Below, piece after piece: positions 2,589 to 36,899 of a DNA stretch of 64,000 nt; within the stretch, counting starts at the first letter, position 1; every line of letters begins with the position of its first letter. The stretch is from the NCBI GenBank assembly GCA_977017645.1, contig OZ360232.1, positions 38,626,001 through 38,690,000 on the forward strand, given 5' to 3'. The position numbers were made by a program, and so were the translations under genes. The DNA comes from Torpedo marmorata (taxonomy: Eukaryota). Below the pieces are notes generated by a model that saw only the letters and a program-made list of their open reading frames with translations, was not told where the DNA came from and did not search any database.

Positions 2589-2826
2589 GATATTACCCAT
2601 CCACCCTCACGTGAGATCAGACTCTGTGAAGAATTGGATACCCAGCAGCTCGGAGAACGATTGCGAGAATCCACTGGCAACAGAACAAAATCAGAAGATT
2701 AGCTTGAAATGATGTGCGATTTAAGAGACGGCAAAAGTGTGGTTATAATGCTTGAAAAATCCAAATAAAGAGACGATCAATGGTGGCGTCACGCACTGAA
2801 AGGCGTTGGAATGGTTTACGCTGGAA

Positions 2827-5280
2827 ATGAGGTATAAAATATATTGGCTGCTAAAATGTCGATTACTATTCTGCGTGTTCTCTTCGTGGAGTATAGTATC
2901 GGGGACGATTCATTATTCGATTCCTGAAGAACTGCAAGTGGGCGCCTTTGTTGGGAATCTAGCAGACGATTTGGGTTTAGATATACAGCAGCTATCGACA
3001 CGATATTCTCGCATTGTGGCCGGGCCCAAGAAATTGTATATGGATATCAATCGGGACAATGGAATTTTATTTGTGAAGGACAAAATTGACAGAGAGCAAC
3101 TGTGTGAGTTGAGTCTCTTTTGTGTGTTATCCTTAGATGTTTTACTCGAAAATCCCCTAACGTTGTATCAGGTTTCAGTGGAGATTCTCGATGTAAACGA
3201 CAATGCTCCTCGTTTCCCGGAGAGTCAAATCCGCCTTGAAGTCTCAGAGCTGGCTGCACCGGGGATGCGTTTCCTTCTCGAGTCTGCGCATGATGCCGAT
3301 GTTGGAACCAACTCCTTGCAAACGTACACGCTCCAGTCGAACGAATATTTTTTTCTGGATGTGCAGATGCGCAGTGGGGATGAAATGTTACCAGTGTTGG
3401 TATTACAGAGACCCTTGGATAGAGAAAAAGAATCCGTCCACAAATTAGTTTTGGTCGCGGAAGACGGCGGGGTCCCTCTAAGGTCAGGCACTGTCCAGCT
3501 TACAATCGTGGTGAAGGATGCAAACGATAACGTGCCTATTTTCCCTCAGTCAGTTTACAGCGTCAGTCTATTGGAATCTGCACCGAAAGGAACGCTTGTT
3601 ATTAAATTAAACGCCACTGACCTGGACGATGGTCCGAATGGAGAGATAATTTACACTTTCAGCAGCCATAATTCTGCCAGAGTACGTAAACATTTTGATG
3701 TTCATTCCAAAACTGGTGAAATTATATTGAAAGAGAAATTGGATTTTGAAGAACGTAGCACAATTGAAATGAACATACAAGCAATGGATATGGGTTTAAA
3801 CCCAATAGCTGTGTATTGCGATATACTGTTGAACGTTATTGATGTCAATGATAATGCACCTGAGGTGACGCTCACGTCCTCGTCGAGTGAAGTTTTAGAA
3901 GATGCCCCTAACGGGACGGTCGTGGTTCTGTTCAGTGCAGAAGACAAGGATTCGGGACGAAATGGACAAGTACAATGTGAAATTTCAAACAAACTGCCCT
4001 TTAGACTCGATTCACCTTTGAAGAATTATTACGGGCTGTATATTGACCAACCTTTGGATCGCGAAAATACCTCCAGATATGATGTTCCCATCACATGCAG
4101 GGATGCAGGCATCCCTCCGCTCACATCCATGGAAACGGTTCGCGTGGAGATTGCAGATGTAAATGACAACGTGCCACGATTTATGCAGCCCAGGTACACG
4201 GTGAACGTCATGGAAAATAATGTTATTGGAGTTTCTATATTACGTTTGAGTGCCATTGATCCAGATTTGGGGCAGAATGCCCGATTGAAATTTTCTATTG
4301 TAGAGTCTGAACTTCAGGACACACAGACATCGTCCTATGTCTCCATTAACTCAGTGAGTGGCGTCATATTTGCTGACAGATCTTTTGACTACGAACAATT
4401 AAAAAAATTCCACATTCAAGTTCTGGTGCAAGATTCTGGAGTCGTGCCACTCGCCAGTAACGTTTCAGTGGATGTTGTTATCCTGGATCAGAATGACAAC
4501 GCCCCAGTAATCCAGAATCCTTTGCCTGAATATGGGTCCACAGCAGTAGACACAATATCCAGGTTTGCAGATCCAGGATACTTGGTTGTCAAATTATCAG
4601 CCACTGATGCTGACAGTGGTCAAAATGCCCTTCTTTCTTTCCACATTTTTCAGGCTACCCATCACGACCTTTTTACTATTTCACCGGAGAGCGGTGAAAT
4701 TTGGACCATCCGTCGAATTATGAGCAAGGATGCCTCCAATCAAAGGCTAGTGGTTGTGGTAAAAGATAATGGAAATCCGCCACTCTCTGCCTCTGTGACC
4801 ATATTATTGACTGTAGTGGGCAGTGATGCGGAAACATTATCCAGTGTCAACACTTTTCCTCAAAATCTTGGGTTCACTCCGGATCTGAGCATGCCCTTGG
4901 TCATAAGCCTAGGAACAATATCTATCATTTTCTTTGTTATCTTACTTATCCTTGCTGTTAAGATTCACAGAAACAGACAAGGATTGGGAGGCCCGCGCCG
5001 TTCCCTTGGTGTTTGTTGTTGCTTTGGAGCAAGAAATTCTCTGAATGGAATTCAAAAAGCGAGTAGAAGCCTTCAGATACCTCCAAATTACGTCGAGGTA
5101 TTCGGGGGCGATCCACTTTCTCAACGTTTTCGTTACGAATCATGTTTAACTTTGCAGTCAACGAACCCGAAAACTTGTGGGCAATCTGCAAACAATCATT
5201 GTGTCCAGAATGAGTTTTTCAGAAAAGACAAAGCTGAAAAGATGCATTTGGAAAATTTCAGCAGCACTATAAATAATGAG
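2827..5280 (+). CDS. Pcdh: Clustered protocadherin variable exon V1 (SP, EC1-6, TM, variable cytoplasmic domain)
   Basis: ORF 2806-5325 (TTG start in track; first in-frame ATG 2827). YSIPEE, DRE, DxNDNxP and AxDxG cadherin motifs, EC1 C-X5-C, TM helix; phase-0 donor GAG|GTGAGG at 5281. Confidence 0.95.
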
Positions 5281-5822
5281 GTGAGGTCTTTCTTAAAAGC
5301 AATTCGATTTTCTCAGTTAGTTTGATTTAAGTTTGTTTGAGAATGGCTGCAAGGGAGTCATATCGTCATGCTCCCCTTTTTCAAGTTTAATTGCCATTTC
5401 TTCTGAACATCCCTGTTACTTTGCTTTTAAATCATGATTTGGGGCTCACCACATGGATAGAGATAAGGATAATTTCCCCTCTTTTTTTCTTTAAAATGAT
5501 CTTCACTAGATATCTGTAAATGTTGAGTCAATTAGCATACTCAAGACAGGGAAGGACATACTGTACTTTTATGTGTACAGCAGAATAAAAGATTATGGGT
5601 ATGTTAAATTGATGAGATGAGATTTGTTGCGGTCATCATGGATACTGGAGCTTGCTCCAGGGGAGGTATGGTGTACTTTCTCTATTATTTTTGTTTGTGT
5701 TTCTCTCTCTGCTTTTGTTTAAATTTTTTACAAAGACATTGCAAATCTTTTTTTTTAAATGTGTTCCCCGGAGATCCACCTGATTTCAAGGATATTCCTA
5801 AAACTCACCTTATTATATTTAA

Positions 5823-6014
5823 CCCTTTGGACTCCGGCCATTTTTAACTTTTCACAATATATACTCCGGATACATGGGTCCGTGGGTAAACTACAGTATG
5901 GACACCAGTATGAACTATCTGGTGGTTGGGTATAAAACCAGTCCCAGAAAATGGGGACACGGAGTATATGCATTTGTTGGTGGACCCTGAAAACCAGACA
6001 CGGGGTCCAAAGGG
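5823..6014. mobile_element. piggyBac-type MITE
   Basis: TIRs CCCTTTGGACTCCG / CGGGGTCCAAAGGG (1 mismatch) flanked on both sides by TTAA (5819-5822, 6015-6018). Confidence 0.8.
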
Positions 6015-6669
6015 TTAAGTGTCTGAATGTTGAAATTGTCCCACACTTATTTATTTTTGACTCTGTGGGGAAAATCTGTCCGCTTATATCTTAGCTGACA
6101 TACGCAGAACAATTTCCTTGTGAGTAATATCGTATTTCCATTCAGGACTTGCAAGACGGTTGCATAACAACTGAAGATAATGCAGATCCAATGTCTGGAG
6201 TTATTTCTAGTTTCCGACAAGTTGCCTTTCCCCATCGTTATTCTTCAAACAAGTCAAATGATGATACTGTTCGTTATAGATTCTGTTCGGAAAATACGTT
6301 ATATTTTTACCCACATCATATCCGCCACTGTATCGTAAATCAAGGTTATGCAGTACCTCGAGTGATGTTTAGAAAGTTTGACGCGTTGAGTTGAAATATC
6401 AAATGCTTTCCTCAGTAAATGGTTCATTGTTCTTTTGCTCCAGGTATGAACTCGAATGGCATTACAGTTACACAATATGTTTACAAGTAATGCAGAGAAT
6501 GTTTTACATGCCACACAAGGCCCATTCTGGTTTTAGTCAGTCAGAAGTATCATAATTCCAAGCGTTTTATGTTCTCAAGTAATTCCGTAATATCGCAGTT
6601 AGGTAATAAAATATTCCATTAATGCATCCATTACTGACCATGCAATAACGATTATGTTGCCATTTAGAA

Positions 6670-7040
6670 CAATGGTTTTCAAACATTTTTCTTTCCACGC
6701 ATATATCACCTTAAGTAATCCCTATGCCATAGGTGCTCTGTAATTAGTAAGGGATTACTTAAGGTGGTATGTGAGTGGGGAAAAAAGTTTCAAAACCACT
6801 GTTTTAATCGTACCTAATTGACTCGTTATGTGCATGATTTCATAACTAAGGAAATAGCCCAATGACAATATTATCAAGCAAAATATTTCAGTAACAATTG
6901 GGTCTAGAGTAGTGGTTCTCAACCTTTTTTCCCCACTCACATACCACCTTAAGCAACCCCTTACTAATCACAGAGCACCTAAGGCATAGGGATTACTTAA
7001 AGTGGTATGTGAGTGGAAAGAAAAAGTTTGGAAACCACTG
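6670..7040. mobile_element. hAT-type composite MITE (two TIR-bounded units plus spacer)
   Basis: Termini CAATGGTTTTCAAAC...GTTTGGAAACCACTG, exact 8-bp TSD ATTTAGAA (6662-6669, 7041-7048); same family as 1646. Confidence 0.9.
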
Positions 7041-7495: not shown

Positions 7496-7751
7496 CCTTC
7501 CATCCCCATCCACCATCACAGACGCTCAGATTCAGTTCAAATCTGAATGGCGGACAGCGAAATGTTCGCTTGGTTTATCCGACTATTGAGGATTTTGAGA
7601 GAAATAAGGTTTCTCCGACCGGCCAATCCCATTTTTCGCGTGCCGTGCAGTGCTTCTTCACCGAGAAAATGATATATCAAGAACTTAATTTTATGGACTG
7701 GACCAACGGCGCCGTATAGCGCGGAAGCAACTGGAATGCTTTGTGCTGGCG

Positions 7752-10220
7752 ATGGGATATTTTCAAATATTTTGGAAGTTATACTGGCAACTGGTGTATT
7801 GTGTTTGTTTCGACTGGGCTGTGGCTTCTGGACCTATTCGTTACTCGATTCCCGAAGAGGGGCAACTCGGTGCCTTTGTTGGAAATATCGCAATCGATCT
7901 GGGACTAAGTGTAAAGGAGCTCTCAGCTCGCAATTTTCAGATCGTGCCTCGCTCCCGGAAACAATATTTTGAGGTAAATTCAGACAATGGAATTGTGTTT
8001 GTTAAAGATAAAATCGACAGGGAGCAGTTGTGTGGAACGAGCGCCTTGTGCACGTTGTCTTTGGAGGCTTTGATTCAAAATCCCTTAACTGTGTATCACA
8101 TTGAAGTGGAGATACTTGATGTAAACGACAATGCTCCCAGCTTCCCGAATCGCCAGTTTCGTCTTAAAATCTCAGAGCTTGCTGCACCGGGGGCGCGCTT
8201 CGCCTTGGAGTGCGCCCACGATCCGGACGTTGGAACCAATTCATTGCAAAGCTACCAGCTGTCTCCTAATGAATACTTCGGATTAAATATTGACTCGCGT
8301 GGTGGGGATGGTAAATTGCCGGTATTGGTGTTGGAACGACAGTTGGACAGAGAGAAGCAAGCGACACACAAGTTGGAACTGCACGCCCAAGACGGGGGGC
8401 TTCCTGCTCAGACTGGTACTGCTGAAATAATAATTGTAGTGCAGGACGAAAACGACCACGCACCCGTCTTCCCAAACTCCGTTTACAGAATTAGTCTCGT
8501 AGAAAACGTGCCGAAAGGAACACTGGTCATCAAATTAAGCGCCACTGATTTAGATGATGGTCCTAATGGAGACATTTTATACTCTTTCAGCAGTCATGCG
8601 TCTGTTAGAGTCCGTGGTTTGTTTTCTGTGGATTCCAAAACAGGGGAAATCAGAGTAAAAGGAAATCTGGACTATGAGGAAGACAGTATATTTGAGATTA
8701 ACATACAGGCCTTGGATCAGGGCACTAATCCAAGTCCCGGATACTGCCACGTTCTGGTTAATATTATCGATGTCAATGATAATGCCCCAGAGCTGAAGGT
8801 AACGTCTTTATTCAGCCCTGTCCGTGAGGATTGTCCGTCCGGGACGGTGGTCGCTCTGATCGGTGTATCGGACAATGACTCTGGGGCAAATGGACAGGTT
8901 GAGTGTGAAATCGCACCCGGATTGCCTTTCAGACTGGATTCATCGTTGAGGAATTACTTCAGATTACTAACTCAGCAGTTGCTGGACAGAGAAAATACCT
9001 CACGCTATGACATTCCTGTTACGTGCCGTGATTTAGGATCTCCTCCTCTGGCGTCCAAGAAAATCATCACCGTGGAAATTTCGGATATAAACGATAATGC
9101 GCCGCACTTTACGCAGCCTTCCTATACGGCTTACGTGATGGAGAACAACATTATTGGGGCGTCAATCGTCACCGTGACCGCTCTTGATCTAGATATGAGC
9201 CAGAATTCTCAATTATTTTACTCAATTCTGGACACCCATGCACTGAGCGAACCTGTGTCCACTTACATCAGGGTCAATTCCAAAGACGGCGTCATATTGG
9301 CTCAGAGAAGCTTCGATTACGAGCAACTCAAAAATTTTCAGATCCAAGTCCGGGCCAGCGACTCTGGAGACCCGCCGAAAATTGGCACCACGTCGGTGGA
9401 TGTAATTATCCTTGACCAAAATGACAACGCCCCCGTGATTGTGTACCCTGCCACAGAGTATGGTTCAACGGCATTGGAAACAATAGCACGGTTCGCAGAG
9501 CCAGGCTATCTGGTCACCAAGCTAACCGCCAATGATGCTGACTCGGGCCAGAACGCACGGCTCTCTTACCAGATCTTCCAGTCGACTGACCCCGGACTTT
9601 TCACCATCTCACCTGATACGGGAGAAATTTGGACGGTCCGCAGCTTCACAACGAAAGATGCGAACAAGCAAAGGCTGATAGTTGTGGTAAATGATAATGG
9701 GACGCCGACACTTTCTGCCACAATGACCCTCATCCTATCGGTGGCAGAAGATGACACAGAAATTCTTTCTCGTGTGAACAATTTATCTGAAGATGCTGGA
9801 TTAACATATGATGTCAGTTTTTACTTAGTTTTATCTTTGGGGATAATCTCATCCACTCTTTTTGTGATTTTAATTGGCCTTGCCGTCACTGTGCACAAAA
9901 ACAGAAACGGTTTTGGCGGGTGTATTTGTTCCCTCGATACATGCTGTTGCTTTCCAGCAAGATCTTCGCTGAACGGTTTCCAAAAGAACAAAAGAAATAT
10001 CCAGATACCTCCGAATTATGTGGAAGTATTTGGGGGCGATCCTCTTTCTCAAAGGTTCCGCTACGGGACCTGCTCCACTTACAGTTCGAGCAAGGAAGAG
10101 TTCCTGTACTCCAAACGGTGCAGATCATCAACAGGCAGGAATGGTGCTGGGGGCGAAATTGCGTGCAATAATGAACAATCACAGTCATCACTTTATAACA
10201 ATTGTAACAACATTAGTCAG
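7752..10220 (+). CDS. Pcdh: Clustered protocadherin variable exon V2
   Basis: ORF 7743-10268, first in-frame ATG 7752; six cadherin repeats, TM, QIPPNYVEVFGGDPLSQ motif; phase-0 donor CAG|GTGAGA at 10221. Confidence 0.95.
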
Positions 10221-15205: not shown

Positions 15206-15479
15206 TTTCCATTCCACCATTACATAAGAACACGAAACAATGTGGATTGGATAGCGAGCTTTGTTGGGTTGCAGCCGTTTTTTTGTGTCCATCTATTCTG
15301 GATTTTACTGAGGAACTGAGAGTCCGATCAAACAATCGCGACAATTTATTGAAAGGAAAAATATTCTTGCGCAGTGAAGCCTTTGTTGTGAAGGTATACC
15401 TCTTTTATTTTTTAAATCACAGGAATAAACTGAGAGTCACGGTATCGCACAGAAGCCATTGGAATGTTTAACACCGGCG

Positions 15480-17933
15480 ATGAGATGTTATAATATAGTT
15501 TGTTTCTTAAAATGGGGACTGCTGTATTACAGTTTTATCGTCTGGGAGCGAGTTTTAGCGGAGATTCATTATTCGATTCCTGAAGAATTGCAACGAGGCG
15601 ATTTTATTGGGAATATTGCAGACGATTTAGGTTTAGATGTTAAACAGCTCGCGGCTCGGAATTTTCGTCTTGTATCGGGTCAAAGAAAGCAGTATTTGGA
15701 AGTAAATCTAAACAATGGAGTTTTGTTTGTAAAGGAGAAAATTGACAGGGAGGAATTGTGTGGTGCAAGCCTGACTTGCGTTCTCTCTTTGGAGGCTGTG
15801 CTTGAAAGTCCTCTTAATCTGTACCAAATCGAAGTGGATATTCTGGATATCAACGACAACTCTCCCAGTTTCCCAAAAAGACAGGTCCGCCTGAAAATCT
15901 CCGAGTTTACTGCGCCAGGAGCGCGCTTCCCCCTGGAGAGCGCTCATGATCCGGATATTGGAACCAACTCCGTTCGAACCTATGAGCTGGTGACAAATGA
16001 GTTCTTCACATTAAATGTTGAAGATGGAATTGCAGATTGGAAGCTGCCAATTCTCGTATTGGAACAGCCCTTGGACAGGGAAAAGCATTCGACTCACAGG
16101 CTCCTGCTCCAAGCCAAAGATGGCGGGGACCCGGAAAGATCAGGCACCGCCCAAATTAACGTCGTGGTGGAGGATGCCAACGACAATGCGCCGGTATTCT
16201 CTCGGTCGGTTTACACGATCAGTCTATTAGAAAATGCGACCAAAGGGGCTTTGGTACTGCAGATTAATGCCACCGATTTGGATGACGGCGCCAATGGAGA
16301 GATTACGTACTCCTTCGGCAGCCGTACCTCTGCCAGAGTCCGAGAGATTTTTGGTATGGATCCTCAAACTGGTGAAATAAAACTGAGCGCGAATTTAGAT
16401 TATGAAGAAAATAGTGCGTTTGATATTATGGTACAAGCAATGGACAAGGGCTCCAACGCCATCCCAGTATACAGTCGCATTTTATTGACTATTTTAGATG
16501 TAAATGATAACGCGCCTGAAATAACTCTAACATCTTTATCAAGCCCAGTTCCAGAGGATTCTCTGCCTGGAACTGTGGTGGCTCTGGTCAGTGTTTCTGA
16601 TAGAGACTCTGGCAACAATGGACAATTTCAATGCCACATAGAAAATAAAGTGCCTTTCACGCTGGATTCGTCGTCCAAGAATCACCTGAGATTGCTCACC
16701 CACGATGCCCTGGACCGAGAATTCGTCTCCATGCACAACGTAACTATCATCTGCAGGGATGAAGGAACTCCGGCTCTCAGCACGATCAGAACGATCCCGA
16801 TTGAGATTTCGGACCGAAACGATAACTCGCCACAATTTTCGCAACCTTTGTTCACGGTGCATGTGATGGAGAACAATCATATTGGTGCCTTGATATCCTC
16901 AGTGACAGCATTTGATCCAGACGTGGGTGAAAATGCTCGGCTATCGTACGATATTCTGCAGAATTGGGTGCAGGGTCAGTCAGTAAACAATTACGTCTAT
17001 ATTAATTCAGAGACTGGCAATATATATTCCTATAAAACATTTGATTATGAGCAGTTAAAATCCTTTCAGATCCAAGTTGAAGCGCGTGACCATGGAGTCC
17101 CATCGCTTTCCAGCAATGTTTCCGTAGACGTTATCATTCTTGACCAGAATGATAACGCTCCAGTGATCGTTCATCCATTAATCGAGTACGGGTCAACTAC
17201 CAAAGAGGTTGTATCCCGATCGGCGGAAGCAGGCTATCCAGTAACAAAAGTTACAGCAACGGATGCCGATTCGGGACAAAATGCTCGCTTATGCTATCGT
17301 ATCCTCCATGCCACTGACTCGGGACTTTTTACTATTTCTGAGGACACGGGGGAAATATGGACAACTCGTGCTGTTAGCAATACCGACGCAACAAAGCAAA
17401 AATTGGTTATCCGAGTGAATGACAATGGGACACCAGCACTTTCTGCTTCGATTACTATAATCTTGTCATTAGTAGACGGTGAAGAAGCGTTATTGTCTGA
17501 CAGAAGCAGTTTGCTGCAAAGGTCCAATGTTGCTTCTGTTACCAGCCTTTACTTAGTCGTTTCATTAGGAATGCTATCGTTCATTTTTCTGGTGATTTTG
17601 ATTATTCTAGCTGTTAAAGTTCACAAAAGCAGAAATGTGTTCGAGGACCACAGCTGCGTCCTGGGCGCTTGTTTTGCCTTCGGTCCACGACAATCGCTGA
17701 ATGGAGTTCAGAAAGCCAGCCGCAATCTTCACATTGCTCCCAACTACGTTGAAGTATTTGGTGGTGATCCGCTTTCACAGAGTTACCGCTACGAAACCTG
17801 TTCCATGGCACGTTCAGCAAAGGGAGACTTGGTGTTCCCCAACACCTGCGGTTCCTGGAAGGGGACCAATGAAGTTATTGCACAGAGAGGAGCTGTATTA
17901 TTCAAAACTTGTGAGAATTCTGTTCTTTCTGAG
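15480..17933 (+). CDS. Pcdh: Clustered protocadherin variable exon V3
   Basis: ORF 15459-17972, first in-frame ATG 15480; full EC1-6/TM architecture; phase-0 donor GAG|GTGAGA at 17934. Confidence 0.95.
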
Positions 17934-22311: not shown

Positions 22312-22573
22312 TACCCTCCCCTTCCGCCATTGTATTGATACCGTGTAACATGGAGAGAGCGGCTTGCCCTTGCAATCGGTTCTTTACATTCATTTATTGG
22401 CGAAATTCGAAGAAATCAGAAGGTTTGTCAGAAATCGTTACGCAGGATTTTTAAACAGTACGTTTGTTTTTTTCTGCTATTAGTCAAAATGGAATTAGAT
22501 TTTACTCGTCTGAGCGGGAATTATTGAACGACGCCGCGGTGTTCTCAATCATTTGAAATGCTTTGTGCTGGAA

Positions 22574-25018
22574 ATGGAATTTTATAAATTTTATTGGCTA
22601 TTGAAATGGCAACTTTTATACTGTATTATCCCCTACTGGCAAATAATTTCTGGACAGATACGTTATTCGATTCCTGAAGAATTGAACGTCGGTGCTTTTA
22701 TTGGGAACATCGCAGAGGACCTGAAGTTGGATGTAAAAGAACTCTCAGCTCGCGGCTTTCAAATTGTGCCGGGACCGAGTAAGCGGTATATAGACGTAAA
22801 TGTAAACAACGGGGTTTTGTTCGTGAGGGAAAAAATGGATAGAGAACAGTTGTGTGGACCGAACCTCGCTTGCACGTTGTCTTTGGAAGCAGTGATTGAA
22901 AACCCTCTTAATGTGTACCATTTTCAAGTGGACATTTTGGATGTGAATGATAATGCCCCGAGTTTTCCAGAGAGAGAATTCAGTTTGGAAATATCAGAGG
23001 TGGCTTCTCCTGGAACGAGCTTCGCTCTGGAGTGCGCACACGACCCTGACGTTGGAACCAACTCAGTGCAAAACTACCAACTAGCAGACAACCTCTATTT
23101 CTCCCTTGATGTTGAGACCCGGGGTGGCGACGAAAAGTTGCCAGTTTTAGTCCTGGAAAGACCGCTGGACAGAGAAAAGGAAAATACTCACAGGCTGGTT
23201 TTGTTTGCCAAGGACGGAGGGGTTCCTGAAAGATCAGGTACTGCTGAAATAGTAATCGGTATAGAGGATGCCAATGACAATGCGCCTGTTTTCCCCCAGC
23301 CGGTGTACAGGGTGAGTTTGCGGGAGAATGCGCCGAAAGGAACATTAGTGATCAAACTGGATGCCTCCGATTTGGATGCTGGTCTCAACGGGCAGATTGT
23401 GTATTCCTTCAGTAGTCATACTTCGAATAGAGTTCGAGAACTGTTCGGGCTAGATTCAAATAGTGGCGAAATCAGAATTAAGAACCGTTTGGATTACGAG
23501 GAAAACGATGTTTTTGAGATTAACGTTCAAGCAAAAGATAAGGGTCCTAACGCAACCCCCGTATACTGTCGCGTGCGGGTTAACATTGTTGATGTGAATG
23601 ACAACGCTCCTGTAGTAACACTGACATCTTTATTCAGTCCTGTCAGTGAAGATTCCCTTCCCGGCACCGTGGTGGCTCTGATTAGTTCAACAGACAAGGA
23701 TTCGGCTGAGAACGGGCGCGTGGATTGTGAACTCCAAAACGACCTCCCCTTTAAACTAGAATCATCTTTAAATAACTATTACAGACTGGTTACCCGGGAG
23801 GTACTGGACCGTGAACATGCATCAGCCTACAACGTAACTGTGGTGTGCAGCGATGCGGGGATCCTTCCACTGGTATCCAACAAAACAATCCTGGTGGAGG
23901 TCTCGGATATAAACGATCACCCACCTCATTTTACACAGTCTGTATATACGGCTTACGTGATGGAGAATAACGCCATTGGTGCGTCCATATTCTCTGTGAC
24001 TGCTTCAGATCGAGATTTACATAGAAACGCCCAACTGTCCTACGTTATTTTGGATACTCAGATTCAGGGGATGTCAGTGTCCACGTACGTCTCAATAAAC
24101 CCGCACAGTGGTGTCATATTTTCGCAGAGAAGTTTCGATTACGAGCATCTCAAAAACTTTGAGGTCCAAGTTCAGGCACGAGACTCTGGATCCCCGCCAC
24201 TTTCCGGCAATGCTTCAGTGAATGTGGTCATCTTGGATCAGAATGACAATGCGCCGGTGATCGTGCACCCATTACCTGAATTCGGCACCACTGCTTTGGA
24301 GACGATATCCCGGCTGGCTGAACCAGGCTACCTGGTTGCCAAGGTTTCTGCCACAGACAGTGACACTGGCCGGAATGGTCGCCTTGCTTTCCAGATCCTC
24401 CAAGCGACTGATGTCGGCCTCTTTACCATTTCACCGGATACAGGGGAAATCTGGACAATTCGCAGTATTAGGAAGAAAGACGCCGCTAAACAAAGGTTGG
24501 TCATCTGTGTTAAAGATGACGGATCACCACCTCTTACAGCCACAGTGACAATCATCTTATCTTTAGTTGGAAATGACAGACAAATGCTCTCAGATGCGAA
24601 TGGTTCCTCTGATGACTCCGTGTTTGCTTCTGACGCCAGATTTTACCTTGTAATAATTCTAGGGCTAACATCATCCGTGTTCCTAATCATTTTGATTATG
24701 CTGGCCGTTAAGGTCCATAGAACTTCTTCTCTTGGCGCATGTGGCTGCTTAACAGCAAGGCCCTCACTCCGTGGATTGCACAGAGGCAATAGGAGCCTTC
24801 AGATACCACCAAACTATGTTGAGGTGTTTGGGGGTGACCCACTTTCTCAGAGTTTCCGCTACGATTCATGCTCAACTTCACATTCTGTAAAGAGAGATGT
24901 CAGGCTGCCCAACAGTGGATCTACACGTAAGAATTATACTCCTAGTGGCATTTTGGGAAATGGCGATACCTTACAAACTCCCAATTCTACGCAGTACAGG
25001 AACATTGTAAATAATGAG
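22574..25018 (+). CDS. Pcdh: Clustered protocadherin variable exon V4
   Basis: ORF 22553-25087, first in-frame ATG 22574; full architecture; phase-0 donor GAG|GTGAGG at 25019. Confidence 0.95.
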
Positions 25019-25359: not shown

Positions 25360-25464
25360 CAAGTGGTTCACCCTTTTCTCCACTCACATACCACCTTAAG
25401 TAATCCCTTACTAACCACAGCGCATAGGTGGTATGTGAGTGGAAAACAAAGTTGAGAACCATTG
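25360..25464. mobile_element. hAT-type MITE, internally deleted unit
   Basis: ccactcacataccaccttaagtaatcccttactaacc...ggtggtatgtgagtggaaa...gttgagaaccattg, same family as 1646; TSD not clear. Confidence 0.75.
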
Positions 25465-25580
25465 GGTTATTCGCTGGGGTTTGTGAGATTGTTTAAATCA
25501 GCATCAATGGCATTCTTACAATCCCGAAGTCATGAGATTTGGAGTTGGATTGATATTTCTCTGGAGACTTTGATATAGTG

Positions 25581-25705
25581 CAATGGTTCTCAACCTTTTT
25601 TTTCCACTCACATATCACCTTAAGTAAGGATGCCATAGTTAGTAAGTTAGTAAGGGATTATTTAAGATGGTATGTGAGTGGAAAGAAAAAAGGTTGAGAA
25701 CACTG
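25581..25705. mobile_element. hAT-type MITE, single unit
   Basis: CAATGGTTCTCAACC...GGTTGAGAACACTG with 7/8 TSD ATATAGTG/ATATAGCG. Confidence 0.85.
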
Positions 25706-25990
25706 ATATAGCGTGTTTACTTGGTAGAAAACTCATTCGGTGGTTAAAGTTTTATATATTGGCATGAAATGAATGGGATTAAGCATTAGAATTTACCAAC
25801 ATAGATGTTCGTGGTCTGTTTTGCCAGAGACACGAGCCATGTAGGGCAAGGATTTTATGTTTCCATAATTGCATTACAAATGGTTCTGGTAATTGATTTG
25901 AATGTTGTAGCTCTTATAAAATCCACAAGAATGTAGCAGAGTAAACAAAATCTCCAAACCAATGCCGGTAATGGTGTAAGATATTTACAT

Positions 25991-26125
25991 TGTACACTAA
26001 TAAATCTGACTTTGACCTGGAGATTAACAGAGACATTCCAGCTTTAAGAAGCATTGTGCGCCATGATTGGTTGGACGCAGTTCACCAATGAGAAGCTGAA
26101 ATGTGTCTGGTGATCTTGACTGCCC
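25991..26125 (+). promoter_or_regulatory. V5 promoter module
   Basis: TGTACACTAATAAAT (25991), GCTTTAAG (26041), ATTGG (26066), CCAATGAGAAGC (26085), TGGTGATCTTGACTGCCC (26108). Confidence 0.8.
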
Positions 26126-26399
26126 CCGTCCCTTCCAGTCGCCATTACGTACGATCAGATACAGTGTAAAACTCCGCATAGCCGAGCGTAGCGATGGAAA
26201 GGGCTTTGCGATCGAAAGCATTGGATATTACAATTGAAATGAAAAGGTTCGAACAAAATCTCAATATGCTTTGAAAAATACAGGTATTTTACGCAACATT
26301 GCCTCGTTTATCTTTAAAGCTGGCATTTATAGAATCTTATTCCTGAAAATCGGTGAATGGCGTATCGCGCTGAAGTAATTGCAATGCTTTGTACAGGAG

Positions 26400-28841
26400 A
26401 TGGGATATTCTAAAATATATTGGCTGATAAAATGGTCACTTTTTTGCTCTGTGTTATCACCCTGGATTCTGGTTTCGGGACAGATTCGCTATTCAATTCC
26501 TGAAGAGCTGCAACTGGGTGCCTTTGTTGGAAATGTCGCAGAGGATTTGGATTTAGACGTAAAAGTCCTGGCGGCCCGCAGTTTTCGGATTGTTTCTAGT
26601 TCCCGGAAGCAGTATCTTGATATCAATTTGGACGATGGAAATCTTTATGTGAAAGGAAAAATTGACAGGGAGCAGCTCTGCGGGTCGAACCTCGCATGCA
26701 CGCTGTCCTTAGAGGCAGTGATCGAAAATCCGTTGACCGTGTACCATTTACAAGTAGAAATTCTGGATGTAAACGACAACGCTCCCAGTTTTCCCCAAAC
26801 CCAATTCCGCTTGGAAATCTCAGAGGTTGTGGCACAAGGAGCACGCTTTGCCCTTGAGTCTGCTCATGATCCAGATGTTGGAACCAACTCTGTGCAGACA
26901 TACCAGCTGGACGATAACGAGTATTTCACCATAGACATTCAGTCACGCCGTGGAGATGGCAAGCTGCCGGTGTTAGTTTTGCAAAAGCATCTAGACAGGG
27001 AAAAGCAAACGATCCACAACTTAGTCCTGATTGCCAAGGACGGAGGCATCCCTGAAAAATCGGGGACGGCTCAGATCGTGGTTATCGTGCAGGATGCGAA
27101 TGACAACACGCCAGTGTTCCAACAATCGGAATATAGGACGAGACTGTTGGAAAATACACCAAAAGGAACTCTGGTAATCAAACTAAACGCTACTGATTTA
27201 GACGATGGGCCTAATGGAGAGATTGTTTACTCTTTCAGTAGCCATGCCTCTCCCAGAGTTCGGGAAATGTTTCGTGTGGATTCCAGAACTGGGGAAATCA
27301 GGGTTAAAGGGAATTTGGACCACGAGGAAAACGACGTTTTTGAGATTAATATACAAGCGACTGACAGGGGGTCTTTTGCAACGCCTGCCTATTGCGAGGT
27401 GTTGGTGGATGTTATTGACATAAACGACAACGCCCCTGAGGTGAGATTGACTTCTTCATTCAGTCCTGTCAGTGAGGACGCCTTGCACGGGACAGTGGTT
27501 GCTCTGTTCAACGTGGCTGACCAAGACTCGTCAGATAATGGGCAGGTACATTGCCACATTTTAAGTGGCTCTCCCTTCAAACTGGATTCCTCTTTGGCGA
27601 ACTACTACAGACTACTAACAGAGAAACCGCTGGATCGCGAAAATATCTCAAAGTACGACGTTACCGTCGTCTGTAGCGATGAAGGAATTCCCCCTCTCAC
27701 ATCCAAGAAATCCATCCGAGTGGATATTACCGATGTAAATGATAATGCACCACGTTTTATTCATCATTTATACACAGCTTATGTAACGGAGAACAATGCT
27801 ATTGGGTCTTCTATCTTCTCAGTGACAGCCTTTGATCCGGATGCAATGCAGAACTCACAATTGTCTTACTCTGTCTTAGAAACATGGGATCAGGATTTGT
27901 CAGTATCCGCTTACGTGCATATTAATTCGGAAACTGGTGTCGTATATGCTCGGAAAACATTTGACTACGAACAATTAAAAACCTTTCAGATATGTATAGG
28001 AGCGCAGGACTCTGGGACCGTCCCACTGCGCAGCAATGTTACAGTAGATTTTATTATCCTCGATCAAAATGACAATGCCCCAGTCATCGTCCATCCGCTG
28101 CCAGAATATGGATTGACAGCGTTAGAAACCGTGTCGAGGTTGGCGGAGCCTGGTTACCTCGTTGCCAAAGTATCTGCGACGGACGCAGACTCTGGCCAGA
28201 ATGCTCGCCTCACTTATGAGATTTTCCAAGCTACAGACACGGGACTTTTTACCATTTCATCTGACTCGGGAGAAATATGGACTATCCGTGGCATCCTGGA
28301 CAAAGATCTTAGGAGACAAAGTTTGGTCGTTGTTGTGAAAGACAACGGAGAGCCTGCACTTTCATGCACAATCACCATTATTATCTCGGTGGAACAAAGT
28401 AAATCAGAGTTGTTATCGGAAGTGGACAGTTCATCCGATGAAGCAGGTTTGGCTCCGGACACGAGCTTTTACTTGGTCATAGCCTTGGGGTTAACTTCTG
28501 TAATCTTTCTGGTTATTTTGATTGTTCTTGCCATTAAAGTTCACAAAAATACGCAAGACTTTGATGGTAACACCTGCTGCTTTGTGGCAAGAAGTCGAAA
28601 GGCGAGTAGGAGCCTTCAAATACCTCCAAATTATGTTCAAGTATTTGGGGGCGACCCACTTTCTCAAAGTTTCCGCTACGATACTTATTCGGCTTCAAAC
28701 ACACTCAGGGGAGACTTCATGTTCCGCAACACGTGTGGCTCGGCTGAAGGAAAGAATAACGCCAATATCCACCCCAGTAGGAAAGGCGAGATTCCACCAG
28801 TAACAAACGCTTCAAGCTGTAGGAACACTGTGGATAGTGAG
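26400..28841 (+). CDS. Pcdh: Clustered protocadherin variable exon V5
   Basis: ORF 26379-28910, first in-frame ATG 26400; full architecture; phase-0 donor GAG|GTGAGA at 28842. Confidence 0.95.
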
Positions 28842-29147: not shown

Positions 29148-29235
29148 GAAATGGGATTGTATAAAATATATTGTTTTTTGAAATGGCAACTGTTATGTTT
29201 AGTGTTCCCCTGGAATCTGATTTCTGGACGGATAC
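29148..29235 (+). pseudogene. Orphan copy of the V7 start/signal-peptide sequence
   Basis: 82/88 nt identical to 36897-36984 (MGLYKIYCFLKWQLLCLVFPWNLISGRI vs MGLCKIYCFLKWQLFCLVLPWNLISGQI); no promoter module and no cadherin repeats. Confidence 0.85.
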
Positions 29236-29239
29236 CATA

Positions 29240-29790: not shown

Positions 29791-30053
29791 CTATCGACCA
29801 TCACGTAAGATCGGCTACAGTGTAAAAATGGACAGCACGCTGCATCATGTTATATTAGGATCTGAGCACGAATATTTGGATCATTTTAGAAATAAGAACA
29901 TCTGCTTTAATTAATATCCGGATTTTCAAATTGTACAGGTTTTTTTTTTACAAATGAAAGCTCTGTTAAAATGTTACTGAAAGGCGTTTATTAAGACGAT
30001 TTCGCGAACGGAGCAGGGCTGCACTGAAGCATTTGAAATGTTTTTCGCTGGAA

Positions 30054-32528
30054 ATGGGACATTGGAGAATATTTTTCTTGAGAAAATGGCATCTGCTGTA
30101 CTATCTATTCTCCTTGTGGGATATAATTTCGGGACAAATTCGTTATTCGATTCCGGAAGAACTGCAAATTGGCGCCTTTGTTGGTAATATCGCGGACGAT
30201 TTAGGTTTAGCCGTGAGAGAACTCTCAGCTAGGAATTTTCGTGTCATGCCCGGTCTCGGGGGGAAATATTTTGACGTAAATTTAGACAATGGAATCATGT
30301 TTGTGAAGGAAAATATTGACAGAGAGCGGCTTTGTGGGTCGAGCCTTACTTGCCTTTTATCTATGGAAGCTGTGGTTGAAAATCCACTAAATGTCTATCG
30401 GGTCGAAGTGGAGATTTTGGATGTAAATGACAACACTCCCAGTTTCCCAGATAATCAATTCGGTTTAGAAATCTATGAAGTGGCGGCCCCGGGAGCCCGC
30501 TTCCCTCTTGAGTGTGCCCACGATCCGGACGTGGGAACCAACTCCCTACAAAGCTATCACCTGGTTGAGAATCAATACTTCGCGCTCGACATTGAGACCC
30601 GCAGTGGGGACGAGAAGCTGCCGGTGTTAACGCTGGAAAGGGCACTGGATAGAGAGAAGGAACCGACGCACAAGTTGCAACTAATTGCAGAGGACGGAGG
30701 GATCCCTCCAAGGTTCAGCACTGCCGAAATATTAATCGCAGTGCAGGACGCCAACGACAACTCTCCTGTCTTCCCCCAGTCGGTGTATAGGGTCAGCCTG
30801 AATGAAAATGTTCCCAAAGGAACACTTGTCATCAAGCTCAACGCCACTGACTTGGATGATGGCCCTAATGGCCAAATCGAGTATTCATTTACCAGCCACA
30901 CCTCGGCAACAGTACGTGAACTCTTCGATCTGAATTCCGAAACAGGGGAAATCAAAGTGAAGGGGAACTTGGACTATGAGGTAAATAGTGCCATTGAGAT
31001 CAATGTTCAGGCAATAGATAAAGGCTCTGCTCCATCACCTGTTTACTGTCGTGTTCATGTGGATATTACCGATGTGAATGATAACTCTCCTGAGGTGACC
31101 GTGACTTCTTTGTTCAGTCCAATTGTCGAAAGCTCTCCGCCAGGGACTGTGATAGCGTTGGTTAGTACCACAGACATAGACTCCGGGAAAAACGGACAGG
31201 TGGATTGTCAAATCCCAAATCACCTCCCCTTTAAACTGAATTCGCCATTAACGAACTATTACAAATTGTTAACCGTGAACCAATTAGATCGCGAAAATAT
31301 CCCCAGCTATGACGTCACCATACAATGCCGTGATTCTGGATCGACTCCTCTAACTTCCAAGAAAACATTGCATGTCGAGGTCTCAGATGTAAATGACAAC
31401 GCGCCTCGTTTTAGCCAATCTTCATACACCGCCTATGTGATGGAGAACAACGTCATCGGAGCCTCTATCATAGCAGTGACGGCTACAGATCCTGATTTGA
31501 ACCAGAATGCCAAAATATCATATTCCATTCCTAGAAACCAGTTCAAGCACGAGCCGGCAGCGAACTACGTGCATGTTAATGCCGAAGCTGGAACCGTTTT
31601 TTCTCAAAGAAGTTTCGACTACGAGGAACTCAAACGTTTCCAGTTCCAGGTGCAAGCGCGGGACAGCGGAGACCCATCGCTCAGCAGCAATGTTTCGGTG
31701 GACATTGTCATCCTGGATCAGAACGACAATGCCCCAGTGATTGTGCACCCTCTACCTGAACATGGATCGACCGTCATGGAAACAATGTCTCGCTCTGCAG
31801 AACCAGGTTATCTGGTTACCAAGGTGTCTGCAATCGATGCTGACTCTGGCCAGAATGCTCGCCTCTCTTACCAGATCGTTCAGGCTACTGACCCAGGACT
31901 TTTCACCATTTCGCCGGACACGGGAGAAGTGTGGACCATCCGTGACATGGTGGAGAAGGATGCGACAAGGCAAAAGTTAAAAATTGTGGTCAAAGACAAC
32001 GGAGCGCCGCCGCTTTCAGCTTCCATGACTATCAGTGTGTCGGTGGTGGATGGGGATGCTCAGCTACTTTCTGGTGTCACGGATTTGACCGATGACGCGG
32101 CTTTCAAGCCCGTGTTGAGTTTTTACTTGGTGATATCTTTGGGCGTAATTTCAACCATTTTCCTGCTGATTTTAATCGTCCTCGCCGTGAAGGTGCATAA
32201 AAGCAGGAATAGGTTTGCTGTTTACAGTTCATACATGGGCGTCTGCTGCTGTTATAAATCAAGAAGTTCTCTCAATGGGATTCAGAAAGCGAGCAGAAAC
32301 ATTCAGATACCTCCGAATTATGTGGAGGTCTTCGGAGGCGACCCTCTTTCTCAAAGTTTTCGCTACGGGACGAATTCAACTTTAGCTTCGAACAAGAGAG
32401 ACTCTGCCTTTCCTAATTCATACAGTTCATCTGCAATGTCATCCAAAGGCGGGTGTGCGCCTCATGAGAAACATATATATCTACACTCGCAACCTCCTGC
32501 AAATTATAGCAATGCTGTGTCTAATGAG
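30054..32528 (+). CDS. Pcdh: Clustered protocadherin variable exon V6
   Basis: ORF 30033-32573, first in-frame ATG 30054; full architecture; phase-0 donor GAG|GTGAGG at 32529. Confidence 0.95.
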
Positions 32529-32819
32529 GTGAGGTGTTCCTCAAGAAGGGAAATGTGTAGCTCACAAGTTTGATTCAGCTGCACTTGATTGAAGTAGAGC
32601 ATACTTTTCTTCTGTTTGGTGACATGACGTCCGTGTGATATCCAAAAATCAAAATCCACAAAGCCGCTTGTTTTTTTATTTTTGCCTTTAAACTATCCCT
32701 CTCAATCGTCTGCGGTGGCTGTGCCGAAAGGAGTTAAACGTCATTTATGATTAAGGCTTTGTCGTCTTTGAACCCAGTCTAAAAACATGCAAAATGTGTT
32801 TGCCGTACTTAGTGTGGGG

Positions 32820-33707: not shown

Positions 33708-36010
33708 CACAAGTGACGGAGGTTTGTGTTGGCGAGCACTTCGGGTCCAGTGATCATAATGCCATCAGCTTCAATGTCATTATGGAAAGAGATAAGTCAG
33801 GGCCAAGGGTTGAGGTTTTTGATTGGGGAAAAGCTAGATTTGAGGAGATGCGAAGGGACTTACAGGGTGTGCATTGGGACAATTTGTTTTATGGGCAGGA
33901 TGTAGTAGAGAGATGGAAGTCTTTTAAAGATCAGATTTTGAGAGTGCAAAAGCTTTATGTTCCTGTTAGGTTAAAAGGAGGGGCAAAAGGTTTGAGAGAG
34001 CCGTGGTTTTCGAGGAATATTGGAAACTTGGTTCAAAAAAAAAGGGAGGCATACATTAAGTATAAGAAGCATGGAAATAAGGAGATGTTTGAAAAATACA
34101 TTGAATGTAAAAAGAATCTTAAGAGAGGAATTAGGAAAGCTAAAAGAAGGTATGAAGAGACTATAGCAAGCAGGGTGAAAATTAATCCAAAAGGTTTTTA
34201 CAAATACATTAATGGTAAAAGGAAAGCGAGGGACAAAATTGGTCCCTTAGAGAATCAGAGCGGAAAACTGTGTGTGGAGCCTAGAGAAATGGGGGAGATA
34301 TTGAACAGTTTCTTTTCTTCGGTATTCACCAAGGAGAAGGATATTGAGATATGCAAGATAAAAAAAGCAAATTGGGTAAATATGGAGAATATAGGGATTA
34401 CGAAAGATGTAGTGTTAGGGCTTTTGAGGCATATAAAAGTGGATAAGTCTCCGGGACCCGACGGGATCTTCCCCAGGACCTTGAGAGAAGTAAGCGAAGA
34501 AATAGCAGAGGCTCTGACGGTGATTTTCCAAATGTCATTAGAGATGGGGCTAGTGCCGGAGGATTGGCGTATTGCGCATGTGGTTCCGTTATTTAAAAAG
34601 GGTTCAAGGAGGAAGCCTGGCAATTATCGGCCTGTAGGTTTGACGTCTGTGGTAGGTAAATTAATGGAGAAAGTTCTCAGAGATAGTACTTATAAATATC
34701 TGGATAGACAGGGTCTGATCAGGAACTCTCAACACGGATTTGTGAGCGGAAGGTCCTGTTTGACCAATCTGATTGAATTTTTTGAAGAGGTGACTAGGAA
34801 TGTGGATGAGGGTAGAGCGGTGGATGTTGTCTATATGGACATCAGTAAGGCCTTCGATAAGGTTCCGCATGGAAGGTTAGTTAGGAAGGTGCAGTCTTTA
34901 GGTATAAATTCTGAGATAGTCAAATGGATTGAACATTGGCTGGAAGGGAGAGGCCAGAGAGTGGTTGTGGATAATTGTCTGTCAGGTTGGAAGCCGGTGA
35001 CCAGCGGTGTGCCTCAGGGATCTGTATTGGGCCCATTGTTGTTCGTTATATATATCAATGATCTAGATGATGGGGTGGTAAACTGGATTAGTAAATATGC
35101 AGATGATACTAAGATAGGTGGAATAGTGGATAATGAAGAAGGTTTTCAAAGATTTCAGAGGGATTTGGGCTGCTTAGAAAAGTGGGCTGAAAAATGGCAG
35201 ATTGAATTTAATGCTGATAAGTGTGAGGTGCTTCATTCTGGTAAGAAGAATCAGAATAGGACATATGTAGTAAATGGGAGAGCATTGATGAATACAGAAG
35301 AGCAGAAAGATTTAGGAATAACGGTGCATCGTTCTCTGAAGGTGGAAACTCATGTGAATAGGGTGGTGAAGAAGGCTTTTAGTATGCTGGCCTTTATCAA
35401 TCATTGCATAGAATATAGGAGTTGGGAAGTGATGTTGAGATTATATAAGGCTTTGGTGCGGCCTAATTTAGAGTTCTGTGTGCAGTTCTGGTCGCCAAAT
35501 TATAGGAAGGATATCAACAAGGTGGAGAGAGTGCAGAGAAGGTTTACCAGAATGTTACCTGGGTTTAAGTATCTAGAGTACAAGGAGAGATTGAGCAGAT
35601 TAGGTCTTTATTCTTTGGAGTGTAGAATGTTGAGAGGGGATTTGATAGAGGTATTTAAAATTATGAAAGGGATAGACAGAGTGGATGTGGATAGACTGTT
35701 TCCATTAAGAATAGGAGAGATTGAAACAAGAGGACATGAGCTAAGAGTTAAGGGGCAGAGGTTTAGAGGTAACATGAGGGGGAACTTCTTTACTCAGAGA
35801 GTGGTAGCGGTGTGGAATGAGCTTCCGGGAGAAGTAGTGGCGGCAGAGTCAATTTTATTATTTAAGAAAAGTTGGACAAGTATATGGATGAGAAGGAAGT
35901 GGAGGGTTATGGGCAGGGTGCAGGTAGGTGGGACTAGATAGGAATGTTTGGTTCGGTGCGGACTGGAAGGGCCTAATGGCCTGTTTCCATGCTGTAATTG
36001 TTATATGGTT
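33708..36010 (+). mobile_element. 5'-truncated CR1 LINE with a long open RT frame
   Basis: ORF 33689-35941 (750 aa): GSSDH, NYRPVGLTS, QHGF, GVPQGSVLGP, YADD; apparent small frameshift near the C-terminus; tail gttatatgg. Confidence 0.95.
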
Positions 36011-36109
36011 CATATGACCTTAAAGATTAAATTCAATGTGGTCATGACATTCAGCATCAAATGTTATCCCAACTGATCCTTTTTGGACATTTCTAGCGTG
36101 CTCTTAGCT

Positions 36110-36469
36110 CAGTGGTTTTCAAACTGCCCCCCTAAACTCACATTCCACCTTAAGCAATCCCTATGCCATAAGTGCTCTGTGATTAGTAAGGGATTGCTTA
36201 AGGAGGTATGTGAGTGGAAAGAAAAAGTTTGAAAACCACTGTTTTAATCGTACCTTATTGACTCGTTATGTGCACGGGTTTATAACTCCAAAGGAAATGG
36301 GCCAATGACAATTTTTCTCAAGCAAAATATTTCAGTAACCATTGGTTCTCAACCTTCCCTTCCCACTCAAATACCACCTTAAGCAATCCCTTACTAATCA
36401 CAGAGCACTTATGGCATAGGGATTTCTTTAGGTGGAATGTGAGTTTAGGGGGCAGATTGAAAACCACTG
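36110..36469. mobile_element. hAT-type composite MITE
   Basis: TIRs CAGTGGTTTTCAAACTGCCCCC / GGGGGCAGATTGAAAACCACTG; colinear with the 6670 and 43544 copies. Confidence 0.9.
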
Positions 36470-36496
36470 CTCTACGAATCAGATTCAAATTTAGAT

Positions 36497-36636
36497 TGCG
36501 CAACCATAAATATTGGTTTCCAAGTCCGATTCAGTGTGCTAGCTTTAAGAAATGAGGTCTCCTGTGATTGGCTGAAGGCGAATGTAACGCCAATGGCCAA
36601 TCAGAAGCTGAATGGTGAATGGAGATCCTGACGGCT
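36497..36636 (+). promoter_or_regulatory. V7 promoter module
   Basis: TGCGCAACCATAAAT (36497), GCTTTAAG (36542), ATTGG (36567), CCAATCAGAAGC (36597), TGGAGATCCTGACGGC (36620). Confidence 0.8.
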
Positions 36637-36899
36637 CCTTTCCTTTCCGATCCGCCATCACATCTATCGGATACAATATGAAATTGGATAGCGAGCAGCG
36701 TGACGTGGAATGGGAATCGTGATATCAGAAGATTTTTGAATGTTTGATCTTAAAAAATCTCGGAGATTAATCACAACTACAGGTATTTTATAATGGAGCT
36801 CCTGGCGTGGGATTTTAAAGCCTGAAAACCATTTTATTCCAATGGATATGTCAGCAGCCCTATGACGTGCTGAAGCAATCGGAATGCGTTGTGCTTGAA

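What the first reader, a model, noticed from the sequence alone, without database searches (positions are those of the whole stretch)
2811..36898. Out-of-frame upstream ATG at exactly -16 in 7/7 variable exons: candidate cluster-wide translational attenuator
Seen: uATG/main ATG pairs are 2811/2827, 7736/7752, 15464/15480, 22558/22574, 26384/26400, 30038/30054 and 36884/36900. Every uATG has G at -3. The uORFs read MVYAGNEV*, MLCAGDGIFS... (78 aa), MFNTGDEML*, MLCAGNGIL*, MLCTGDGIF*, MFFAGNGTL... (long) and MRCA*. Six overlap the main start; V7's stops just before it. Neighbouring bases vary while the ATG does not. Established: overlapping out-of-frame uORFs prevent reinitiation, so the main ORF is made only by leaky scanning, and such uATGs are usually selected against. 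Inference: a conserved device that limits or equalises isoform dosage, which matters for combinatorial self-recognition; V7 may be regulated differently.
Basis: partly seen in the sequence, partly recalled or inferred. Interest (0 to 1): 0.75.

Follow-up and report, generated by a model that had tools for sequence, protein, structure and literature searches.

The report
Conserved decoy start codon in protocadherins
In a cartilaginous fish, 14 of 15 copies of a neuronal self-recognition gene keep an out-of-frame start codon 16 bases ahead of the true one, which likely diverts some ribosomes and would lower protein output, although a protein-binding motif that happens to contain those letters is not excluded.

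Summary
In detail: all seven ATG pairs and uORF peptides check out. The exons are nu-type clustered protocadherin variable exons. The -16 ATG is in 14 of 15 nu exons of this genome and 0 of 27 intact exons of the other subclusters. Synonymous sites between paralogues are near saturation, so neutral retention is excluded (0 of 400,000 simulations). Contigs from three related species, one shown to be spliced RNA, reach 131-266 bases upstream of the main ATG, so the ATG likely lies in the mRNA. All 11 other overlapping out-of-frame ATGs in the cluster have a weak -3 base; this one has G in 14 of 14. Corrections: the ATG is the core of a conserved block of about 33 bases, so several neighbours are equally invariant; 11 of 14 sites are an exact TEAD hexamer; the leaders hold about three more unconserved uATGs each; uORF ends differ (4 to 78 codons, one loss), which does not suggest an equaliser. 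Best reading: a selected overlapping uORF that dampens translation (0.5), against a binding motif with a passenger ATG (0.3). Translation and repression are untested. Known mechanism, apparently unreported setting.

The parts
2811..2837 (+). V1 overlapping uORF (8 codons + stop); main ATG 2827; variable exon ends at donor 5280
7736..7972 (+). V2 overlapping uORF (78 codons + stop); main ATG 7752; donor 10220
   Evidence: no Pfam match
15464..15493 (+). V3 overlapping uORF (9 codons + stop); main ATG 15480; donor 17933; the only nu leader with no other uATG in -220..-17
22558..22587 (+). V4 overlapping uORF (9 codons + stop); main ATG 22574; donor 25018
26384..26413 (+). V5 overlapping uORF (9 codons + stop); main ATG 26400; donor 28841; groups with elephant shark nu13
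30038..30187 (+). V6 overlapping uORF (49 codons + stop); main ATG 30054; donor 32528
   Evidence: no Pfam match
36884..36898 (+). V7 non-overlapping uORF (4 codons + stop, one base short of the main ATG at 36900); donor 39209
26367..26399 (+). Conserved start-proximal block, -33 to -1 (shown for V5; same offsets in every exon), containing the uATG
26085..26125 (+). Conserved promoter element: CCAAT box followed by a GATC-containing core (V5; equivalents start at 2547, 7455, 15165, 22271, 29755, 36597)
7527..7538 (+). Likely transcription start region of V2 (contigs of two related species end at -225 and -214)
   Evidence: weak hint, contigs only
26144..26157 (+). Likely transcription start region of V5 (contig ends at -256 and -244; the -244 end falls on the same base of a shared motif as V2's -225 end)
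   Evidence: weak hint, contigs only
51165..51223 (+). Nu constant exon 1 (59 bases, AG/GT bounded), shared splice target of the variable exons
58347..58563 (+). Nu constant exon 2 (end approximate, from tblastn)

Best explanation
Fourteen of the 15 nu protocadherin exons keep an out-of-frame ATG with G at -3, 16 bases before the true start, which likely captures part of the scanning ribosomes and would lower each isoform's protein output. Steps: (1) shown: position, frame, context, conservation beyond neutral; (2) likely: transcription starts about 215-265 bases upstream, so the AUG is in the leader (contigs of related species); (3) inferred from general uORF biology: ribosomes that start at it end downstream of the main AUG in 13 of 14 exons and make no protocadherin, so protein comes from ribosomes that leak past it or win the competition between the two close AUGs; early termination might also lower mRNA by nonsense-mediated decay; (4) inferred: selection keeps it because lower surface dosage of nu isoforms is favoured. 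It sits in a wider conserved block (-33..-1) that probably has further roles. The uORF peptide is not the selected product.
For: 14 of 15 nu exons, 0 of 27 other intact exons. Neutral retention 0 of 400,000 simulations; 0 of 67 strict four-fold columns invariant, mean 4.6 changes, against 0, 1, 0 changes at A, T, G. The only run of three or more near-invariant leader columns is -17..-14. Substitution pattern is Kozak-like: -3 G unchanged in 14 of 14, -2 changed in 3, +4 takes all four bases. Non-overlapping uATGs have a -3 purine in 71 of 108, other overlapping out-of-frame uATGs in 0 of 11 (Fisher P = 2e-5; about 9 independent events), this one in 14 of 14. All 8 contig sets from runs X4, X7, X12 that cover the starts of V2, V5, V6 extend to -131..-266; X4 joins V5's donor to constant exon 1 while X3 runs through the intron. 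V5 groups with elephant shark nu13 (support 0.94), so the paralogues are older than the chimaera-shark split. Out-of-frame uATGs at -30..-3 lower reporter output and mRNA in yeast, less so at short distance (PMC9743702, passages).
Against: Nine columns outside the ATG are as conserved, so the ATG is not singled out cleanly; the A at -1 of the uATG is invariant in 14 of 14, which a start context does not require. 11 of 14 sites are an exact GGAATG. The one exon without the ATG (L001) is intact and lost -20, -19, -17 and -15 together, which fits either model. Nu leaders carry 49 other uATGs at -220..-35 with no depletion, so this one is not the only brake. The -3 context test was designed after seeing the pattern and assumes a -220 start for subclusters whose starts were not mapped. 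Contigs do not show starts; a second start downstream is not excluded, and one X4 contig matching the V7-type start has about 1,005 letters upstream. Orthologue data have no power for three bases (71% chance of no change) and rows were hidden (58, 373). No translation data.
Confidence: 0.5

Rival explanations
1. The conserved unit is a binding site for a DNA- or RNA-binding protein (best named candidate: a TEAD/MCAT site, GGAATG, about 200 bases downstream of the transcription start), and the ATG is a passenger. It could still be read by ribosomes as a side effect.
For: TGGAATG in 10 of 15, CGGAATG in 1, single mismatches in 3. CATTCC/GGAATG is the TEAD consensus and one mismatch was allowed in that study's motif count (PMC4546604, passages). 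Explains the invariant A at -17 and the joint loss of four positions in L001. Listed orthologue differences avoid the last 35 leader bases (0 in 70 against 3.9 expected, P = 0.02, listed rows only), pointing to a wider element.
Against: The three deviations all hit -18, the position free in a Kozak context, while -19 never changes. A passenger AUG in a G context should be costly, given that 0 of 11 other overlapping uATGs have a purine at -3. In the same paper fewer than 4% of YAP1/TEAD1 peaks lie within 2 kb of a start site. No binding data.
Confidence: 0.3
2. The block is an RNA hairpin or DNA palindrome (-24..-16 pairing with -11..-3, four-base loop); the A of the ATG is a stem base.
For: The five inner pairs are formed in 62 of 75 cells, the best of 216 possible five-pair hairpins in -34..+5; three pairs show a two-sided change; stable in L002, L003, L005, L007.
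Against: No covariation beyond shuffles (161/500, 192/500, 89/500, 299/500, 193/500); RNAalifold finds no consensus structure; all eight pair probabilities in context are under 0.1 in 10 of 15; no Rfam match near a gathering score. It does not explain why loop bases T and G are fixed while the other two are free.
Confidence: 0.08
3. The block is a present or former in-frame N-terminal extension (near-cognate CTG at -30), and the ATG is just the junction of a Glu codon and a Cys codon.
For: In the main frame the block reads like a conserved peptide, with some synonymous-looking variation at -25, -21 and -1.
Against: In-frame stops lie within ten codons of the main ATG in 8 of 15 exons, five of them at that very codon; -13 takes all four bases; -16 is A in 15 of 15 whereas 1 of 13 invariant-Glu columns in the coding region is fixed (3 of 13 have at most one change). 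None of the cartilaginous-fish nu-like proteins P0001 and P0004-P0015 has such an extension.
Confidence: 0.05
4. Passive inheritance: the paralogues share the ATG by descent, slow local mutation or gene conversion around the start.
For: All 15 exons form one clade; seven of the upstream eight are younger duplicates (four-fold identity up to 77%). A site at a quarter of the neutral rate would survive with probability 0.03.
Against: Four-fold identity among V1-V7 is 32-48%; adjacent columns -13, -12, -9..-7 change 4-7 times, and third positions in the signal peptide vary freely, so the region is neither cold nor homogenised.
Confidence: 0.05

Closest known systems
Overlapping out-of-frame uORFs (oORFs) read by leaky scanning
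   Same: Out-of-frame AUG upstream of the main start, stop downstream of it (13 of 14), purine at -3, peptide not conserved. Such uATGs lower protein and mRNA in yeast reporter libraries, with weaker effect at short distance (PMC9743702, passages).
   Different: Kept at a fixed offset in 14 tandem paralogues with separate promoters; translation and repression not shown here.
ATF4/GCN4 delayed-reinitiation leaders
   Same: Short upstream uORFs followed by an inhibitory uORF overlapping the main ORF (PMC5972666, passages).
   Different: No conserved uORF1: the distal uATGs differ among exons and V3 has none. A 16-base gap is likely too short for delayed reinitiation to choose between the AUGs (own knowledge).
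Elephant shark protocadherin nu subcluster (Yu et al. 2008; not readable here, known through PMC4978886 and PMC7811963 passages and UniRef names)
   Same: One large variable exon per isoform, shared constant exons, clade with Callorhinchus nu13.
   Different: No leader uATG is mentioned in the passages I saw; the original paper could not be read.
Mammalian protocadherin CSE (CTCF site with CGCT box about 200 bp upstream of the start codon)
   Same: A conserved element sits a similar distance upstream of each exon (about -315 to -255).
   Different: No conserved CGCT box (present at -330..-220 in 2 of 15 on the plus strand, 3 of 15 on the minus); the uATG block is a separate element downstream of the likely start.
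TEAD MCAT element
   Same: Exact hexamer in 11 of 14 sites.
   Different: Inside the leader, single site, second G varies; binding untested.

Membership tests
Clustered protocadherin nu variable exons | Single exon encoding signal peptide, cadherin repeats, transmembrane and cytoplasmic segment, ending in a GT donor | tested here: met
Clustered protocadherin nu variable exons | Splicing to shared constant exons | tested here: met
   constant exons 1 and 2 in the window; V5-to-constant junction in run X4 of a related species
Clustered protocadherin nu variable exons | Clade with elephant shark nu proteins | tested here: met
   15 exons plus nu13 are split from the other exons and mu3 by a branch with support 1.0 (FastTree); only one nu reference was available
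Repressive overlapping uORF | AUG out of frame, stop downstream of the main AUG | tested here: met
   13 of 14; V7 stops before
Repressive overlapping uORF | AUG lies within the mRNA leader | tested here: inconclusive
   8 of 8 covering contig sets from related species extend past it, but contigs do not map starts and none is from this genome's own RNA
Repressive overlapping uORF | Ribosomes initiate at the uAUG | not testable with these tools
   no ribosome profiling; -3 context only
Repressive overlapping uORF | Removing it raises main-ORF protein | not testable with these tools
   needs reporters
ATF4/GCN4-type leader | Conserved short reinitiation-permissive uORF upstream of the inhibitory one | tested here: not met
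   distal uATGs are not positionally conserved; V3 has none
Conserved-peptide uORF | Conserved amino-acid sequence and length | tested here: not met
   lengths 4-78 codons; codons 2-4 vary widely; no Pfam match for the two long ones in the window
TEAD MCAT site | CATTCC/GGAATG hexamer | tested here: inconclusive
   exact in 11 of 14, one mismatch in 3
TEAD MCAT site | TEAD occupancy and effect on transcription | not testable with these tools
   no binding data
Structured RNA element | Consensus structure with covariation | tested here: not met

The most novel reading that the evidence does not exclude
Clustered protocadherins have a translational layer of control: since before chimaeras and sharks split, the gamma-like nu subcluster has carried a built-in decoy start in every isoform's own leader, kept through each duplication at a spacing where two AUGs compete, to set how much of each chosen isoform reaches the cell surface. 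Promoter choice would decide identity and the decoy would decide dose.
Probability: 0.35. Interest if true: 0.7.

Novelty: new member of a known kind. Interest (0 to 1): 0.45.

Why it matters
Work on clustered protocadherin regulation centres on promoter choice by CTCF and looping (PMC7811963, passages; the word 'translation' occurs there once). A repressive uORF kept in parallel in 14 separate leaders would show that per-isoform protein dose is under selection too, and it is cheap to test: natural variants already separate the two main models (V4-V6 keep the ATG but break the hexamer; L001 lacks both; V7 stops short). If the ATG is only a passenger, the finding still marks a conserved subcluster-specific element that I did not find described.

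Tried and rejected
Sequencing-run search: no listed holder is on record as RNA; this says nothing on expression. Runs X1 and X2 did not cover the V2 leader; no inference drawn. Hidden 5' UTR intron: a donor-like CAG/GT occurs near -115 in V5-V7 but no shared acceptor AG lies in the block; rejected. RNA hairpin: not supported. In-frame extension: stops in 8 of 15. Teleost proteins with a similar in-frame upstream string (P0067, P0071) group with L038, not with nu, so that lead was dropped. uATG depletion by dinucleotide shuffling is unreliable: a control stretch upstream of the promoter also came out low (53 against 68.7 +/- 5.7), so the apparent depletion in other subclusters (61 against 88.3) is not used. 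A V7-like fragment at 29148-29235 was checked as a neutral control but starts at -3 and lacks the site. Rows left out: four broken exons (L014, L019, L022, L024), L031 (checked separately, left out) and L040 (other contig; tree outgroup only). Literature searches with no relevant hit: 0 papers each; 3 listed each, none on this by title or abstract start. Yu et al. 2008 is not held, and no supplements were read, so an earlier remark on this motif cannot be excluded. Earlier scan notes: none.
Full report
Observation. All seven pairs are at the stated coordinates, out of frame, with G at -3 and the stated peptides. The seven main ORFs are cadherin-repeat proteins whose first Met lies 29-30 residues before the first repeat, as in annotated shark, ray and chimaera relatives. 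The best hits are skate proteins (78% and 75% over the N-terminal region) and a named elephant shark nu13 protein is at 62%. Constant exons 1 and 2 lie in the window at 51165-51223 and from 58347.

Extent. Two searches of the own genome (the second scored 114 of 114 candidates) found 15 consecutive exons of this type, eight of them upstream of the window (L001-L008). They form one clade with nu13. The -16 ATG is in 14 of 15; L001, nested inside the clade, has lost it. Of 31 other cluster exons fetched, 4 are broken and were left out; 0 of the remaining 27 have an ATG at -16 of any candidate start. The feature is therefore nu-specific, not cluster-wide.

Chance. V1-V7 are 55-63% identical in protein and 32-48% at four-fold sites. 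Of 67 strict four-fold columns none is invariant and one changes at most once; the ATG columns change 0, 1 and 0 times. On a tree of 7.45 substitutions per four-fold site, 0 of 400,000 simulations kept ATG in 14 or more leaves; at half and quarter rate the figures are 0.0004 and 0.03. V5 groups with nu13 (0.94), so the paralogues predate the chimaera-shark split, about 400 million years by my recall.

What exactly is conserved. The ATG is not alone. Twelve of 33 columns from -33 to -1 change at most once, against 0 of 27 from -60 to -34 (ungapped, so indels inflate that contrast). The only run of three or more such columns is -17..-14. Around it, -19 (the uATG's -3) is G in 14 of 14, -18 varies in three exons and -13 takes all four bases. 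This is the pattern of a start context, but it is also an exact TEAD hexamer in 11 of 14 (consensus from PMC4546604, passages seen).

Is it in the mRNA? No run is on record as RNA, so kind had to be read from the contigs. In run X4 a contig stops at V5's splice donor and continues with letters matching constant exon 1; an X7 contig stops at the same place with 22 unaligned letters; X3, from the same organism as X4, runs through the intron. X12 is RNA by the tool's guess only. Upstream ends relative to the main ATG: V2 -225 (X4), -214 (X7); V5 -244 (X4), -256 (X7), -131 (X12); V6 -266 (X4), -143 (X7), -228 (X12). All 8 pass -16. The X4 ends for V2 and V5 fall on the same base of a shared motif just downstream of a conserved CCAAT-containing element. 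Limits: these are related species; contigs do not map starts; the X4 V5 contig carries 30 extra letters that resemble V5 coding sequence; one X4 contig matching the V7-type start has about 1,005 letters upstream. No difference is listed at the uATG of V2 or V5, but rows are hidden and three bases would survive such short divergence 71% of the time.

Selection on uATG context. In -220..-1 of 41 exons, non-overlapping uATGs have a purine at -3 in 71 of 108; the other overlapping out-of-frame uATGs in 0 of 11 (Fisher P = 2e-5); the nu -16 ATG in 14 of 14. I designed this test after noticing the pattern, two pairs among the 11 are homologous, and starts of the other subclusters are not mapped. Even so it suggests that these leaders are scanned, that strong overlapping uATGs are normally purged, and that the nu site is a kept exception. 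Against a simple picture, nu leaders hold 49 further uATGs at -220..-35 (14 of 15 leaders have at least one) with no depletion, and none is positionally conserved across the clade.

Rivals tested. In-frame extension: stops within ten codons in 8 of 15 exons. Hairpin: the block is imperfectly palindromic and scores best of 216 candidates, but shows no covariation beyond shuffles and no consensus fold and no Rfam family. Conserved peptide: lengths of 4, 8, 9, 38, 49 and 78 codons. Passive inheritance: neighbouring columns vary freely. A binding motif with a passenger ATG remains open.

Mechanism. Shown: geometry, context, constraint. Likely: presence in the leader. Inferred: a share of scanning ribosomes starts at -16 and terminates past the main AUG (at +10 or +13 in ten exons), so full-length protein comes from the rest. 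In yeast libraries out-of-frame uATGs at -30..-3 reduce protein and, through NMD, mRNA, with a weaker effect as the two AUGs approach (PMC9743702, passages), so a partial, not complete, block is expected. It is not an ATF4-type switch, because no conserved first uORF exists (PMC5972666, passages). Equalisation of isoforms is neither shown nor suggested by the varied uORF ends.

Prior knowledge. Five searches of the held library gave nothing on uORFs in clustered protocadherin leaders; passages of PMC4978886 and PMC7811963 describe only promoter elements. The elephant shark paper was not available and no supplements were read.

Verdict. Real and selected; most likely a known kind of translational brake in a setting where I found no report of it. 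Confidence 0.5 for the uORF as the selected unit, 0.3 for a binding motif. Interest 0.45.

Noticed in passing
window 29148-29235: An 88-base fragment 93% identical to V7's start (-3 to +85) lies between V5 and V6; a truncated duplicate, also present in the DNA of a related species.
   Followed up: partly
window 2547, 7455, 15165, 22271, 26085, 29755, 36597 and L001-L008: Nu promoters share an inverted/direct pair of CCAAT boxes and a GATC-containing core without a conserved CGCT box, unlike the mammalian CSE.
   Followed up: partly
-29..-27 of the nu main ATG (e.g. window 26371-26373): A stop triplet is present in 10 of 15 exons (TGA in 9, TAA in L002) and closes distal uORFs in L002, L004, L007 and V7; may keep other uORFs from overlapping the start.
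   Followed up: partly
L035 and L036, about 32 codons before the first cadherin repeat: The start codon shared with L037 has become ATA and GTG; the frame stays open, so these exons use a later Met with a shorter signal peptide or a near-cognate start.
   Followed up: no
L054:2590-2808 with L052:9868-9993 and L053:8101-8268: The last nu constant exon matches the skate-type C-terminus in one frame and the elephant shark nu13 C-terminus in another, suggesting alternative splicing into a dual-frame terminal exon.
   Followed up: partly
L001:1479-1508: The exon that lost the -16 ATG has a 9-codon uORF starting at -48 with A at -3 that stops at -19; possibly a replacement.
   Followed up: no
window 19103-20380, 33782-35941, 46576-47295: Reverse-transcriptase (PF00078) ORFs, likely LINE fragments, in the introns.
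   Followed up: no
window 1646-1798, 6670-7040, 25362-25711, 36109-36444, 43539-43862: A family of short elements with inverted ends, MITE-like.
   Followed up: no
L042, L044, L014, L019, L022, L024: Broken protocadherin variable exons elsewhere in the cluster.
   Followed up: no
signal-peptide codons 1-12 of the nu exons (e.g. window 26400-26440): The N-terminal part of the signal peptide is unusually alike among old paralogues, and the uORF-frame TAA spanning two of its codons is present in 12 of 15 even where the amino acid changes; not shown to exceed codon bias.
   Followed up: partly
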